The notes under the pieces were generated by a model, which was given only the letters and a program-made list of their open reading frames with translations, was not told the DNA's origin and made no database searches. The translations under genes and the position numbers were made by a program. Positions 1,482-29,599 of a stretch of DNA of 64,000 nt are shown here, piece after piece. Within the stretch, counting starts at the first letter, position 1; each line of letters begins with the position of its first letter. The stretch is from a phage, in the sequence record PZ179883.1. One strand, given 5' to 3'.

Positions 1482-1512
1482 TTTTGAATAAATATCCTTA
1501 AAAGGAGGGTCT

Positions 1513-2169
1513 ATGGCAGCACCTAGAATATCATTTTCGCCCTCTGATATTCTGTTGGGTGTTCTAGATCGCTTGTTCAAAGATAACGCTACCGGGAATG
1601 TTCTTGCTTCCCGGGTAGCTGTCGTAATTCTTTTATTTATGATGGCGATTGTTTGGTATAGGGGAGATAGTTTCTTTGAGTACTATAAGCAATCAAAGTA
1701 TGAAACATACAGTGAAATTATTGAAAAGGAAAGAAATGCACGCTTTGAATCTGTCGCCCTGGAACAACTCCAGATAGTTCACATATCATCTGAGGCAGAC
1801 TTTAGTGCGGTGTATTCTTTCCGCCCTAAAAACTTAAACTATTTTGTTGATATTATAGCATATGAAGGAAAATTACCTTCAACAATAAGTGAAAAATCAC
1901 TTGGAGGATATCCTGTTGATAAAACTATGGATGAATATGCAGTTCATTTAAATGGACGTCATTATTATTCCGACTCAAAATTTGCTTTTTTACCAACTAA
2001 AAAGCCTACTCCCGAAATAAATTACATGTACAGTTGTCCATATTTCAATTTGGATAATATCTATGCTGGAACAATAACCATGTACTGGTATAGAAATGAT
2101 CATATAAGTAATGACCGCCTTGAATCAATATGTGCTCAGGCGGCCAGAATATTAGGAAGGGCTAAATAA
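1513..2169 (+). CDS. t: Holin T (218 aa)
   Basis: SD AAGGAGG; protein near-identical to recalled T4 holin T (MAAPRISFSPSDIL...), N-terminal TM segment, 218 aa. Confidence 0.95.
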   Translation: MAAPRISFSPSDILLGVLDRLFKDNATGNVLASRVAVVILLFMMAIVWYRGDSFFEYYKQSKYETYSEIIEKERNARFESVALEQLQIVHISSEADFSAVYSFRPKNLNYFVDIIAYEGKLPSTISEKSLGGYPVDKTMDEYAVHLNGRHYYSDSKFAFLPTKKPTPEINYMYSCPYFNLDNIYAGTITMYWYRNDHISNDRLESICAQAARILGRAK

Positions 2170-4409: not shown

Positions 4410-4419
4410 TATTTATTCC

Positions 4420-15557: not shown

Positions 15558-15925
15558 TTAAATTTAATGGCTTGAAGAAGACTAATAATTCTCAAGCGAC
15601 TTCCTTCATCTTTAACTGTAAAAGAAAGAGGGTCACCAGATTTCATAGTGATAGTGCATTCAAAAGCAAAACCTTCGGGAACTTCTTCGAAGAAGTCAAA
15701 TTCTTCATCATAAATTAGAACATTACTCTGAAAACTGTGAAGAATTTTTCCGTCATTTCCAGATGCTGTACTAATCATTGTAACATTATTACCTTTCATA
15801 TCTTCAACGATAAATTCGCTTGTAGATATTACAGCATTAATAGAACCATTCCTATAAATAGCAGAAAATAGATATTTCTTTTCTTCACCTTCGCGAATGC
15901 GATATTTCTTACCGATTTTAAACAT
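15554..15925 (-). CDS. Hypothetical protein (123 aa)
   Basis: ORF in 39-motB interval. Confidence 0.55.
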   Translation of the reverse strand: MFKIGKKYRIREGEEKKYLFSAIYRNGSINAVISTSEFIVEDMKGNNVTMISTASGNDGKILHSFQSNVLIYDEEFDFFEEVPEGFAFECTITMKSGDPLSFTVKDEGSRLRIISLLQAIKFK

Positions 15926-17475: not shown

Positions 17476-18021
17476 TTAATTCAAAATAGCTACCACCGCA
17501 CTACGAGGTACTACACTAAAATCTCCTGCATGGACAACGTTCAGAAGCTCAACACCATCTTCAATCCACTGGTCTGTTACCCAACCACAGATAGGATTAT
17601 CAAAAGGACGACGGATAGACACAGCAGCACACAACAGGTCTGTAGGGTCTTGTTCTTCAACTTCTTGGAACAGGATGAACTCATCTTCATAAACCAGGTT
17701 TTTCTTTATTTTGTTATTATCTAACCGGCGACCGTGGATGACGTAAGATTTGTCAAACCACTCACTTTTGGCAAATTCTTCAACAATAAATTCGCCTTCG
17801 CCAAAAACATCAGTCAGAGTTTTATGACCAGAAATCAAGGCATTAGTTTTAATTTTAGGTTCAACCAGTTTGTAGGTTTTGCCGATTTCAATAGCGGTAG
17901 TCATAGTAGGTTCCTTAATTTCCAGTGGTTTAACAGGGCATACATAAGTGCTTACAACATCAAAATCAATCAGTTTAGCTACCGGATTTGGTGTGTATTC
18001 AGGATTATAATTAAATTTCAT
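17476..18021 (-). CDS. Hypothetical protein (181 aa), paralogue of the MotB C-terminal domain
   Basis: Motif CGWVTDQWIEDGVELLNVVH parallels MotB CAYITDQWVEDGVKLYNAVF. Confidence 0.6.
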   Translation of the reverse strand: MKFNYNPEYTPNPVAKLIDFDVVSTYVCPVKPLEIKEPTMTTAIEIGKTYKLVEPKIKTNALISGHKTLTDVFGEGEFIVEEFAKSEWFDKSYVIHGRRLDNNKIKKNLVYEDEFILFQEVEEQDPTDLLCAAVSIRRPFDNPICGWVTDQWIEDGVELLNVVHAGDFSVVPRSAVVAILN

Positions 18022-26155: not shown

Positions 26156-26356
26156 TCATTTTGAATGCTCTATAATTAATTTTAAGGCTTCTTCATGCAC
26201 CTTACCTAATTGTATATGTCCAGTTTTAATTGTGTAAGCTTTGTGGAGCTGATTAGATAGGAGCTCGTATGTGAGCTCCTTGTCATAATTTTTAAATAGC
26301 TGGTCAATACGTTTCTTGTGGGCTTTCTTAAGTTGACGTTTATTTAAACGAGCCAT
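26156..26356 (-). CDS. Hypothetical basic protein (66 aa)
   Basis: ORF between 56 and soc. Confidence 0.5.
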   Translation of the reverse strand: MARLNKRQLKKAHKKRIDQLFKNYDKELTYELLSNQLHKAYTIKTGHIQLGKVHEEALKLIIEHSK

Positions 26357-26889
26357 TAATAACCTCGGTCTTGACGAGCGAAGTTTTCAGCATTTTTCAG
26401 ATAATAAAGTTTAAAGATTTCTTCAGCCGTAAGACCGAGACCTTGGAACATGTTCAGAACGAAATGAAGAATATCAATCATTTCGAATTTAATTTCCAAC
26501 TGGTCTTGTGGAGACAAATCAGTAATCAGAGTTTCACGACGTTCACCATGCTGCGACTTCCAAGGCTTCCATACAGCAGATGCATCTTTTTCACCATTGC
26601 TCATACCACCAAGAGAAGTCAGAAGTTCACGGAATTCATCATCAATGTAATCTTTCTGATTACGCAGCCAATCAACAACTTCACCCGCAGTAGCCAAATC
26701 ATCAGGATGACGGTTATATTCAGGTTTATCTTTAGCTAAACGAACCTGTAGAGATTTCTGCATATCAAGCATAACCTGCAGCGGGTCTTTTTCATCACCG
26801 AGAATATCCCAGTATTCATTTTGAGCTTTATCAGCGCCTTCGATCAGTTGACTACATTCGTTAAAGTAAGCCATTATTTTTCCTTTCAA
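26356..26889 (-). CDS. 56: dCTPase/dUTPase gp56 (MazG-like NTP pyrophosphatase), 177 aa
   Basis: Position between dam and soc and size match T4 gene 56; identity not verified. Confidence 0.75.
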   Translation of the reverse strand: MKGKIMAYFNECSQLIEGADKAQNEYWDILGDEKDPLQVMLDMQKSLQVRLAKDKPEYNRHPDDLATAGEVVDWLRNQKDYIDDEFRELLTSLGGMSNGEKDASAVWKPWKSQHGERRETLITDLSPQDQLEIKFEMIDILHFVLNMFQGLGLTAEEIFKLYYLKNAENFARQDRGY

Positions 26890-26934: not shown

Positions 26935-28274
<1,340 letters not shown>

Positions 28275-28296
28275 TATATCATCCTCAGCAATTTAT

Positions 28297-28330
28297 TTTA
28301 TAATACCATAACAAGCTGAGAAAGTAAACA
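28297..28330 (-). promoter_or_regulatory. T4-type early promoter upstream of the 186-aa ORF and dam
   Basis: GTTTAC (rc 28324-28329) and TGGTATTAT (rc 28299-28309). Confidence 0.55.
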
Positions 28331-28373
28331 AATTTATGAAATTTGTGATAAATATTAATTTAAAGGAGGACAT

Positions 28374-28574
28374 ATGGCACAAAAATTAATGGCACTTGTT
28401 AATGCCATCAAAGGTAATAAGAAACGTATAGCTTTTACTATTTCTGCTATGGTAGGAATTTTACTCTGGAACTTTATTTTATCACCAATTGCAATTGCGC
28501 ATGGTGTTAATATTCCAGTAGTTACTCTTGATACATTCGTAGATCTAGCATTTGCTTTAGTTGGGTTAATTTAA
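28374..28574 (+). CDS. Small membrane protein (66 aa) on the opposite strand
   Basis: Strong SD AAAGGAGGA 5 nt before ATG; predicted TM helix (AMVGILLWNFILSPIAIA); stop overlaps the 3' end of gene 61. Confidence 0.5.
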   Translation: MAQKLMALVNAIKGNKKRIAFTISAMVGILLWNFILSPIAIAHGVNIPVVTLDTFVDLAFALVGLI

Positions 28575-29599
28575 ATCTTGGCATATTTAGATAACCGCAT
28601 TTTAGCCATCAACCCTTGGGCAATATTATTTTTCATATATTCCATAATTTGTTCAGGGGTTGCACCTTCCTTTCTAATCATATCATTAACATCTTTTGAT
28701 TTCCAGGGAGATTTATCCCAAAACATAACCCTTTCTCCTGCATCAACTAATTTAGTCATTCGCTTGATAGTGTCAGGGTGACGAGGTTCATTATCTAAAA
28801 CCCACACTCGTCTATCTTTAAATGGAACAACTTCTAGGTCTAATTGACCACCCGTAATAGCTATACCATTTTCAATAAAAAGTGAATCTATAGGTCCTTC
28901 TAGAACATATACATCGCCATCTTTAACTCGTTCGACTCCATATATTTTTGTTGCCTCAGGATAAGCTTTAATGGTGATATATTTTTGAGGAGCATCTTTC
29001 TTTAATGCACGTCCTTGAAAAGACTCAGCTTTTCCATTAGCATTATAAATTGGAATAACAAGACGAGGCTCAGAAATTTCCTTTTTGTATGTTCCCGGTG
29101 CTATGCTATTAACTAATTTAGGCCATTCAGTTGTAAACCAAAGATATTTCCATTTATCCTTTGGAATACAACGAGCTTTTACGTATTTTATAATTGGATG
29201 GTCTTCCGCCAGTTTATCTAATCTAACACATGACGGAAGAGATTTAATTATTTTCTTCTCAGGATGTTTAGGAAGTTCTTTAGGTTTTTCTACTGGACGA
29301 CTTTTACCTTTTTCTTTTCTTATTTCAAAGATATACTCACGATATAAATCAGGTTCAAACTCCTTTAAATATATTCCTATTGGTGCATGATAGTTACAGT
29401 TATAACAATGAATATTTCCTTCATTATTATCACCATAATACCATCCACGAGCTTTATTCTGGTCGGTTTTTGAATCTCCACAAACAGGGCATCTAAACCG
29501 CAATTTAAAAGTTGAACTATTATTTACTTGTGTGAATTTAGGTAAATGAGCTAATGCACGATACGCAAACTCATTATCAATCCAAGGTATTGATGACAT
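28571..29599 (-). CDS. 61: DNA primase gp61 (342 aa)
   Basis: N-terminal zinc ribbon CPVCGDS…CYNC and toprim region; 342 aa as T4 gp61. Confidence 0.95.
   Translation of the reverse strand: MSSIPWIDNEFAYRALAHLPKFTQVNNSSTFKLRFRCPVCGDSKTDQNKARGWYYGDNNEGNIHCYNCNYHAPIGIYLKEFEPDLYREYIFEIRKEKGKSRPVEKPKELPKHPEKKIIKSLPSCVRLDKLAEDHPIIKYVKARCIPKDKWKYLWFTTEWPKLVNSIAPGTYKKEISEPRLVIPIYNANGKAESFQGRALKKDAPQKYITIKAYPEATKIYGVERVKDGDVYVLEGPIDSLFIENGIAITGGQLDLEVVPFKDRRVWVLDNEPRHPDTIKRMTKLVDAGERVMFWDKSPWKSKDVNDMIRKEGATPEQIMEYMKNNIAQGLMAKMRLSKYAKI

What the first reader, a model, noticed from the sequence alone, without database searches (positions are those of the whole stretch)
28374..28574. Convergent small membrane-protein gene on the opposite strand, wedged between gene 61 and the early promoter
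Almost every gene in the 2.2-64 kb stretch is on the - strand, yet this + strand ORF has a near-perfect SD (AAAGGAGGA, 5 nt spacing), an amphipathic N-terminus and a hydrophobic helix. Its stop overlaps the gene 61 stop. An imperfect late-promoter-like GATAAATA lies about 20 nt upstream. It may be a late-expressed membrane peptide (superinfection-exclusion-, lysis- or toxin-like) or an antisense regulator of gene 61 or the neighbouring operon.
Basis: seen in the sequence. Interest (0 to 1): 0.45.

Follow-up and report, generated by a model that had tools for sequence, protein, structure and literature searches.

The report
Conserved late membrane-protein gene dam.1
The small opposite-strand ORF next to the primase gene is a real gene (dam.1), conserved across T4-like phages and almost certainly expressed late, that encodes a 66-residue inner-membrane protein of unknown function; it is catalogued in many phage genomes but missing from the reference T4 annotation.

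Summary
A 66-codon + strand ORF lies at 28374..28574. AAAGGAGGA sits 3 nt before the ATG, and GATAAATA ends 19 nt before it. The stop overlaps the gene 61 stop in a 4-nt TTAA.

It is a genuine gene. It matches phrog_2024 and is called dam.1 in phage T4T. It is intact but unannotated in reference T4. tblastn finds it in 693 phage records. Relatives lie in the same slot, convergent with the primase gene, in at least seven named Tevenvirinae genera. Synonymous sites are saturated between genera, and pN/pS is about 0.2.

ATAAATA lies 14-23 nt before the ATG in almost all lineages, although the surrounding DNA cannot be aligned. The motif is six-fold depleted in this window. A late, gp55-type promoter is therefore well supported in silico.

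The product is predicted to be an N-in/C-out single-pass membrane protein. Its most conserved stretch, WNF..P.A..G..P, sits at the periplasmic end of the helix.

Function is unknown. No holin, toxin or defence model matches. An antisense-RNA role is not supported, because synonymous sites evolve as fast as in gene 61.

Verdict: an already catalogued, uncharacterised gene of modest interest. The practical point is that T4 work using the reference annotation misses it.

The parts
28347..28354 (+). Late-promoter-like box GATAAATA (T4 late consensus TATAAATA, variant at position -13)
   Evidence: Sequence. ATAAATA occurs only 7 times in 64 kb against 40.6 expected. Other copies precede the late genes soc, t and 49. 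ATAAATA lies 14-23 nt before the ATG of the homologue in almost all lineages. Variant -13 promoters are accepted in T4 (PMC2988020).
28360..28373 (+). Inferred 14-nt 5' leader. The start near 28360 is inferred from the -13..-6 position of the box, not measured.
   Evidence: Inference from PMC2988020 and the sequence.
28362..28370 (+). Shine-Dalgarno AAAGGAGGA, 3 nt before the ATG
   Evidence: AAGGAGG-N2-8-ATG is found only here and at gene t in the window. GGAGG-type SDs are present in all homologues.
28374..28574 (+). CDS dam.1: 66-aa predicted single-pass inner-membrane protein (phrog_2024)
28571..28574 (.). TTAA shared by the convergent stop codons of dam.1 and gene 61
   Evidence: The same 4-nt overlap is seen in ST0, VR25, Potts1, CkP1 and KLB31. 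A metagenomic relative overlaps by 14 nt, and KP1 has an 18-nt gap instead.
28386..28411 (-). Terminator-like hairpin plus U-run on the gene 61 strand, lying inside codons 5-13 of dam.1
   Evidence: Folding gives -13.7 kcal/mol, z = -2.4. It is weaker in T4 and absent in Mosigvirus, Gaprivervirus and Potts1, so it is lineage-specific and does not explain why the ORF is conserved.
28300..28328 (-). Divergent sigma-70-like (early-type) promoter for the 186-aa ORF and dam operon
   Evidence: The equivalent site is annotated as a promoter in JB75. It is deleted in T4.
28571..29599 (-). Gene 61 DNA primase (convergent neighbour, context)
27714..28274 (-). 186-aa ORF with sub-threshold restriction-endonuclease-like matches, upstream of dam (variable neighbour, context)

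Best explanation
The feature is dam.1, a genuine protein-coding gene of T-even-type phages. It is transcribed late from its own gp55-type promoter (GATAAATA) on the strand opposite the surrounding early genes, and translated from a very strong SD. The product is a 66-residue inner-membrane protein with three predicted parts. The first is a short basic amphipathic N-terminal helix in the cytoplasm. The second is one transmembrane helix (about residues 19-42). The third is a 24-residue acidic, hydrophobic tail in the periplasm. The invariant or near-invariant residues (W32, N33, P38, G44, P48) cluster at the periplasmic end of the helix and the first periplasmic residues. This suggests that the protein works by binding a membrane partner at that interface. 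My best guess for the process is control of the envelope late in infection (lysis timing, or protection of the envelope), but this last step is inference. Reading of the late transcript into gene 61 as antisense RNA is a probable by-product in this lineage, not the conserved function. Shown in silico: coding constraint, synteny, conservation of the promoter motif. Inferred: late transcription, membrane topology, partner binding. Confidence is about 0.9 for the coding gene and about 0.8 for late transcription and membrane location, which together give the 0.75 stated below. It is about 0.3 for the envelope/lysis role, which that figure does not cover.
For: Coding: full-length match to phrog_2024 (E = 1.6e-31). 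tblastn finds it in 693 phage records, 687 of them nearly full length. In-frame indel variants of 62-63 aa exist. dN/dS is 0.13-0.30 within Tequatrovirus. Between genera pS is 0.6-0.8 (saturated) against pN of about 0.33, and variable sites by codon position number 48/27/58. pN/pS is 0.22. Synteny: the gene is on the + strand and convergent with primase in Tequatrovirus, Mosigvirus, Gaprivervirus, Karamvirus, Jiaodavirus, Kanagawavirus, Klebsiella phage Potts1 and a metagenomic lineage, while the gene on its other side varies. T4 lost the neighbouring 186-aa gene and the early promoter in a 548-bp deletion that ends exactly at the promoter box and leaves dam.1 intact. Late promoter: ATAAATA lies 14-23 nt before the ATG in seven of eight lineages, within otherwise unalignable DNA. 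The motif is six-fold depleted in the window (7 vs 40.6), and other copies sit before soc, t and gene 49. The holin gene t has the same layout (AATAAATA, 19 nt, AAGGAGG). Nine of 50 listed T4 late promoters carry A at -13 and others carry single deviations (PMC2988020). Membrane protein: the AlphaFold model has pLDDT 78 with helices 2-12, 16-42 and 52-63. All family members have 4-6 K/R before the hydrophobic helix and 0-1 after it. Weak context hint for a lysis or envelope role: a chromosomal family member (phrog_2024, E = 2.5e-11) is the last gene of a 32-kb prophage-like element in E. coli yegD, about 1.5-2 kb from a lysozyme gene and a DUF2730 (Mu releasin family) gene.
Against: No transcript, ribosome footprint or peptide was available to me. 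The promoter box deviates from consensus at -13 (G), and the activity of variant late promoters in vivo is not established in general (PMC2988020). The Karamvirus homologue has TATTAAATA, not ATAAATA. There is no homology to any holin, antiholin, spanin, Imm/Sp, toxin or defence model, no solved structure, and no informative fold match. From my own knowledge, the classical T4 r (rapid-lysis) mutant hunts never mapped a locus here, which argues against a strong lysis phenotype. The prophage context could equally mean a moron or exclusion gene.
Confidence: 0.75

Rival explanations
1. The element works mainly as RNA. A late + strand transcript runs antisense into gene 61 (and 61.1 onward) to shut down primase expression late in infection, and the ORF is incidental or secondary.
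For: No + strand terminator-like site lies after the ORF until about 31.6 kb. The stop codons overlap, so any read-through is antisense to gene 61. T4 is known to transcribe both strands at several sites at different times (PMC2988020). The convergent arrangement with gene 61 is conserved.
Against: Synonymous sites in the ORF evolve as fast as in gene 61 (mean pS 0.129 vs 0.128), so there is no extra RNA-level constraint. Across genera the nucleotides are saturated while the protein, the frame and the SD are kept. KP1 has an 18-nt gap holding a GC-rich hairpin between the two genes, so the overlap is not universal. An untranslated antisense RNA past the stop would be a typical Rho target (inference).
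Confidence: 0.07
2. It is a holin, pinholin or membrane toxin, that is, a small lethal membrane-permeabilising protein. One UniRef entry labels a homologue 'Holin'.
For: It is small, predicted to be late-expressed and predicted to have one transmembrane helix. The label 'Holin' is attached to the OE5505 homologue. Its promoter and SD layout matches that of the holin gene t. A prophage homologue lies near a lysozyme gene that has no obvious holin nearby.
Against: No Pfam, NCBIfam or PHROG holin model matches. The C-terminus is hydrophobic and acidic, with 0-1 basic residues, not the charged cytoplasmic tail typical of holins. These phages already encode the holin T, which is in this window. The gene is not next to any lysis gene in Tevenvirinae. 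The 'Holin' label appears once among hundreds of 'hypothetical protein' annotations.
Confidence: 0.1
3. It is a chance ORF in a non-coding spacer whose real content is the gene 61 terminator and the divergent promoters.
For: A terminator-like hairpin plus U-run for the gene 61 strand lies inside the ORF. The reference T4 annotation leaves this 309-bp interval empty. Antisense ORFs of similar length are common in the window.
Against: The ORF is intact in 687 of 693 records. The frame is kept at saturated synonymous divergence. Relatives at 22-55% identity occupy the same slot in at least seven genera. The hairpin is not conserved outside Tequatrovirus.
Confidence: 0.02
4. It is a late-made exclusion or anti-defence factor: a membrane protein that blocks superinfecting phage or a membrane-bound host abortive-infection system.
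For: The neighbouring genes include spackle and dmd, which act in exclusion and counter-defence. The family evolves fairly fast (pN/pS 0.22 against 0.03 for the 3' end of gene 61). It is duplicated in Gaprivervirus, with one copy decaying in some genomes. One member sits at the att-proximal end of a prophage-like element, where morons are usually found, and remains intact while the terminase and portal genes there are fragmented.
Against: There is no PADLOC or other match. From my own knowledge, the known T4 exclusion proteins Imm and Sp are made early, whereas this gene has only a late-type promoter. There is no experimental link.
Confidence: 0.15

Closest known systems
Dam.1 of phage T4T (HM137666, ADJ39749.1) / phrog_2024 / 'putative (trans)membrane protein' of phages 107 and JB75
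   Same: It is the same gene: 95% identical to the T4/T4T sequence, in the same position and orientation, with a full-length profile match.
   Different: Nothing differs in kind. None of these entries has an assigned function, and the reference T4 records NC_000866 and AF158101 do not annotate it at all.
T4 soc and gene 49: late-promoter-driven genes embedded in the early region
   Same: Each has its own (T/A)ATAAATA box 19-30 nt before an SD and ATG, inside a block of early genes.
   Different: soc and 49 are on the same strand as the early genes, whereas dam.1 is on the opposite strand and convergent with gene 61. soc is a capsid protein and gp49 a nuclease, not membrane proteins.
T4 holin T (gene t, in this window at 1513..2169)
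   Same: Both have a variant late box (AATAAATA or GATAAATA) exactly 19 nt before the ATG and the only two AAGGAGG-type SDs in the window. From my own knowledge, T is also an N-in single-pass membrane protein.
   Different: There is no sequence similarity. T is 218 aa with a large periplasmic domain, whereas Dam.1 has only about 24 periplasmic residues. No holin profile matches.
Small single-pass phage lysis regulators (T4 RI antiholin; Mu gp25 releasin, DUF2730)
   Same: They are small, membrane-anchored and act late on the lysis machinery. A Dam.1-family gene lies about 2 kb from a DUF2730 gene and a lysozyme gene in an E. coli prophage-like element.
   Different: There is no homology. The Mu releasin is N-out/C-in with a 73-aa cytoplasmic domain (PMC9239132), the opposite of the topology predicted here. 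No functional data exist for Dam.1.

Membership tests
phrog_2024 / Dam.1 family | Full-length profile match | tested here: met
   E = 1.6e-31 over residues 3-66 of 66. 95% identical to the T4/T4T Dam.1 sequence.
phrog_2024 / Dam.1 family | Conserved core WN[FYL]-x3-P-x5-G-x3-P at the end of the hydrophobic helix | tested here: met
   W32, N33, P38, G44 and P48 are invariant or at least 90% conserved in the alignments.
phrog_2024 / Dam.1 family | Position convergent with the primase gene 61 | tested here: met
T4 late (gp55/gp33/gp45-dependent) genes | TATAAATA box at -13..-6, with no -35 element | tested here: met
   GATAAATA matches in 7 of 8 positions, and the mismatch is at the most tolerant position, -13. 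The box is conserved in homologues, and Potts1 has a perfect TATAAATA.
T4 late (gp55/gp33/gp45-dependent) genes | Transcript appears after DNA replication starts and depends on genes 55 and 33 | not testable with these tools
   A T4 dRNA-seq TSS table exists (bioRxiv 10.1101/2024.04.04.588121), but it is not among the held supplements.
Holins | Match to a holin family model | tested here: not met
   No Pfam or NCBIfam hit at E <= 1. The only PHROG hit is to a family of unknown function.
Holins | Hydrophilic, highly charged C-terminal tail | tested here: not met
   The C-terminal 24 residues have mean hydropathy +1.5, no K/R and a net charge of -2.
Holins | Gene adjacent to endolysin or spanin genes | tested here: not met
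   In Tevenvirinae the flanking genes are the primase gene and dam, gene 56 or MazG-like genes. Only the E. coli prophage member is near a lysozyme gene.
Holins | Lethal membrane permeabilisation on expression | not testable with these tools
   This needs an expression experiment.
Type I toxin / antisense RNA pairs | Small hydrophobic toxin whose mRNA is controlled by an overlapping antisense RNA under sequence constraint | tested here: not met
   There is no excess synonymous constraint (pS 0.129 vs 0.128 in gene 61). An exhaustive search found only 16 representative clusters, all of 33-70 aa and none with a named family. Toxicity was not tested.
Anti-phage defence / counter-defence catalogues | Match to a PADLOC model | tested here: not met
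   No family at E <= 0.1.
T4 virion structural proteins with solved structures | Sequence present among PDB chains | tested here: not met
   A profile search of all PDB chains gave only a chance-level hit (YejA, E = 0.6).

The most novel reading that the evidence does not exclude
Dam.1 is an overlooked late membrane component of T-even envelope control. For example, it could be a partner of the holin T / antiholin system or of another inner-membrane complex. It would have escaped sixty years of T4 genetics and all recent omics and CRISPRi screens because it is absent from the reference annotation and yields almost no MS-friendly tryptic peptide. Its relatives in E. coli prophage-like elements would then act on the same target.
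Probability: 0.2. Interest if true: 0.65.

Novelty: already known. Interest (0 to 1): 0.3.

Why it matters
T4 is the reference organism for its family. Most transcriptomic, proteomic and knock-down studies use NC_000866, which leaves this 309-bp interval blank. A gene that is conserved in at least seven named genera, under purifying selection and probably well expressed late is therefore invisible in those data sets. It is one of very few genes in this early region read from the opposite strand. It encodes a membrane protein in a phage whose lysis timing, lysis inhibition and exclusion all happen at the inner membrane. Adding it to the T4 annotation and knocking it out is cheap and could reveal a new late membrane function. 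If nothing comes of that, it remains one more conserved hypothetical small protein.

Tried and rejected
1. Pfam, NCBIfam and PADLOC scans of the 66-aa protein gave no hit.
2. A PDB profile search gave only a chance hit.
3. A Foldseek search against BFVD returned only family members; everything else had E > 0.1.
4. Literature searches for 'dam.1', for T4 ribosome profiling or small ORFs, and for T4 TSS or antisense transcription found nothing about this gene. The Miller et al. 2003 T4 genome review is not held. The T4 dRNA-seq TSS table is not among the held supplements.
Viral-contig scans gave only 12 loci.
6. I rejected the idea that the ORF belongs to a mobile cassette together with the 186-aa gene. 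T4 and many relatives lack that gene but keep dam.1.
7. I rejected the idea that the - strand hairpin explains the conservation. It is confined to Tequatrovirus.
8. A 57-aa ORF overlapping the prophage homologue looked holin-like (charged tail). However, its hydrophobic part is interrupted by charged residues and its start is called inconsistently, so I did not use it.

Full report
**What is there.** The window is a T4-type (Tequatrovirus) genome. Around the finding the - strand carries gene 56 (26356..26889), dam (26935..27714), a 186-aa ORF (27714..28274) and the primase gene 61 (28571..29599). Between the last two, on the + strand, lies a 66-codon ORF at 28374..28574:

`MAQKLMALVNAIKGNKKRIAFTISAMVGILLWNFILSPIAIAHGVNIPVVTLDTFVDLAFALVGLI`

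AAAGGAGGA lies at 28362..28370, 3 nt before the ATG. GATAAATA lies at 28347..28354, ending 19 nt before the ATG. The stop codon shares the tetranucleotide TTAA (28571..28574) with the gene 61 stop. A sigma-70-like promoter for the 186-aa ORF points the other way at 28328..28300 (annotated as a promoter in phage JB75).

**Is it more than chance?** ORF length alone is not informative, because antisense ORFs of 60-120 aa are common in this AT-rich window. Two other signals are. AAGGAGG followed within 2-8 nt by ATG occurs only twice in 64 kb, here and at the holin gene t. ATAAATA occurs 7 times on both strands together, against 40.6 +/- 6.1 in shuffles, so the motif is strongly avoided. The other six copies include the boxes in front of soc (TATAAATA, 30 nt before the ATG), t (AATAAATA, 19 nt) and gene 49 (AATAAATA). 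From my own knowledge of the T4 literature, all three are late-transcribed genes.

**It is a real, conserved gene.**
- The protein matches phrog_2024 over its full length (E = 1.6e-31).
- tblastn finds it in 693 phage records, 687 of them nearly full length. About 500 are Tequatrovirus records at 89-100% identity and 190 are at 44-56% identity.
- Many records annotate it as a hypothetical or 'putative (trans)membrane' protein. In phage T4T it is named dam.1.
- Reference T4 (NC_000866, AF158101) carries it intact at 17738..17938, with 63 of 66 residues identical, but shows an empty 309-bp interval there.
- Profile searches extend the family to Mosigvirus, Gaprivervirus, Karamvirus, Jiaodavirus, Kanagawavirus, Klebsiella phage Potts1 and its relatives, and metagenomic lineages. 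All members are 57-70 aa.
- An exhaustive HMMER search of 1.84 billion representative proteins found only 16 clusters, none linked to a named family.

In every Tevenvirinae genome examined the gene is on the + strand and convergent with the primase gene, usually with the same 4-nt stop overlap. The gene on its other side varies: dam, the 186-aa ORF, gene 56 or a MazG-like gene.

**Coding constraint.**
- Within Tequatrovirus dN/dS is 0.13-0.30.
- Between genera synonymous sites are saturated (pS 0.6-0.8) while pN is about 0.33.
- Variable sites by codon position number 48/27/58.
- Length variants differ by whole codons.
Mean pS is 0.129 in the ORF and 0.128 in the last 130 codons of gene 61. 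pN is 0.028 against 0.003.

The protein is therefore under purifying selection, about seven-fold weaker than on the primase C-terminus, and there is no additional RNA-level constraint.

**Late promoter.** The DNA upstream of the gene cannot be aligned between genera. Even so, ATAAATA sits 14-23 nt before the ATG in Tequatrovirus (GATAAATA or AATAAATA), Mosigvirus (AATAAATA), Gaprivervirus (CATAAATA), Jiaodavirus, Kanagawavirus, Potts1 (perfect TATAAATA) and the metagenomic lineage. Only Karamvirus CkP1 differs (TATTAAATA). With about one ATAAATA per 18 kb of single strand in this window, repeated placement in a 30-nt interval is far beyond chance.

Geiduschek and Kassavetis (PMC2988020) list 50 T4 late promoters. 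Of these, 32 are perfect, nine carry A at -13 and others carry single deviations. They also note that late transcripts have either polarity. With the box at -13..-6, the start is inferred near 28360, giving a 14-nt leader.

T4 itself adds a natural experiment. A 548-bp deletion between two TTTGTGAT repeats (27794-27801 and 28342-28349) removed most of the 186-aa gene and the early promoter. It ends exactly at the promoter box and leaves the box, the SD and the ORF intact. In Gaprivervirus a second, divergent paralogue follows without its own box, so the two are probably co-transcribed. That copy has decayed in some genomes.

**The product.** AlphaFold with the family alignment gives pLDDT 78 and three helices at residues 2-12, 16-42 and 52-63.
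- The first helix is amphipathic.
- Residues 19-42 are hydrophobic (mean Kyte-Doolittle hydropathy 2.0).
- Every family member has 4-6 K/R before this helix and 0-1 after it.

By the positive-inside rule this predicts N-in/C-out. The best-conserved stretch is WN(F/Y/L)-x3-P-x5-G-x3-P, at the periplasmic end of the helix and the first periplasmic residues. I infer that this interface is the functional site, probably a binding site for a membrane partner.

**What it does is not known.** There is no match in Pfam, NCBIfam or PADLOC, no related PDB chain and no informative fold match. I found no paper on it. The single 'Holin' label (UniRef, phage OE5505) is not backed by any holin feature other than small size and one helix. 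The C-terminus is not charged, the gene is not next to lysis genes, and these phages have the holin T.

There is one new lead. A diverged branch of the family (YNY in place of WNF; phrog_2024 E = 2.5e-11) is the terminal gene of a prophage-like element of about 32 kb. The element carries a serine recombinase and is inserted in yegD in 25 of 5426 complete E. coli genomes. The family gene lies 1.5-2 kb from a T4-type lysozyme gene and a DUF2730 gene, the family of the Mu 'releasin'. This position fits either a lysis-associated role or a moron or exclusion role. It is a hint, not evidence.

**Antisense and terminator issues.** On the gene 61 strand a hairpin plus U-run (28411..28386, -13.7 kcal/mol, z = -2.4) lies inside codons 5-13 of the ORF and may terminate gene 61 transcripts. 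It is weaker in T4 and absent from other genera, so it is a lineage-specific overlay. On the + strand no terminator-like site follows the ORF for about 3 kb, so late transcripts may run antisense into gene 61 in this phage. The equal synonymous rates and the 18-nt gap with a GC-rich hairpin between the two genes in KP1 argue that this is not what selection maintains.

**Verdict.** The reading 'late-expressed membrane peptide' is supported in silico, and 'antisense regulator' is not. The gene is already catalogued (dam.1, phrog_2024) but uncharacterised, and it is missing from the reference T4 annotation. Interest is modest. The value lies in flagging a conserved late membrane gene that reference-based T4 studies overlook, and in a cheap, decisive set of experiments.

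Noticed in passing
window 27714..28274 (-): A 186-aa ORF sits directly upstream of dam, and its stop overlaps the dam start. It has sub-threshold matches to type II restriction endonucleases (Pfam DpnII E = 0.0045, BanI 0.0093; PADLOC REase_II 9e-5) and no PDB relative. A DpnII-like (GATC) nuclease next to the GATC methylase Dam would be a phage-borne R-M-like pair. About 146 of 504 related records cover the whole interval.
   Followed up: partly
window 27802..28349 vs T4 (L002 3127..3238): T4 lacks the 186-aa ORF and its early promoter because of a 548-bp deletion between two direct TTTGTGAT repeats (27794-27801 and 28342-28349). The junction falls inside the GAT of GATAAATA. T4 dam therefore has no promoter of its own in this interval.
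   Followed up: yes
whole window; 15853..15860 (+), 4410..4416 (-), 1634..1640 (-): ATAAATA is six-fold depleted (7 vs 40.6 expected). A perfect TATAAATA at 15853 (+) lies inside a - strand gene with no obvious + strand ORF after it, so it is a candidate antisense late promoter. The copies at 4410 (-) (overlapping an SD and start codon) and 1634 (-) (antisense within t) are unexplained.
   Followed up: partly
window 1487..1515 (+) and 28347..28376 (+): The holin gene t and dam.1 share an almost identical expression cassette: a variant NATAAATA box, 19 nt to the ATG, and the only two AAGGAGG-N-ATG sites in 64 kb.
   Followed up: partly
L004 1495..1901; L014/L015 1495..1901; L005, L018, L031: Gaprivervirus phages carry two tandem paralogues: a T4-like copy and a copy resembling those of Klebsiella phages. 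The second copy is truncated or has lost its start in several genomes, so this looks like recent gain and decay.
   Followed up: partly
L041 (E. coli EC28, NZ_CP049101.1 1879769..1911511); L037 8001..8213: A low-GC (32-36%) prophage-like element of about 32 kb is inserted in yegD. It has a serine recombinase, fragmented terminase and portal genes, GIY-YIG nuclease genes, a T4-type lysozyme gene, a DUF2730 (releasin-family) gene and a Dam.1-family gene as its last gene. It is present in 25 of 5426 complete E. coli genomes.
   Followed up: partly
window 28386..28411 (-): A terminator-like hairpin for the gene 61 transcript is embedded in the 5' coding part of dam.1. It is strong where the downstream operon has its own early promoter (this window) or where dam is absent, as in L010. 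It is weakened by one base change in T4, where dam lost its promoter and must be read through.
   Followed up: partly
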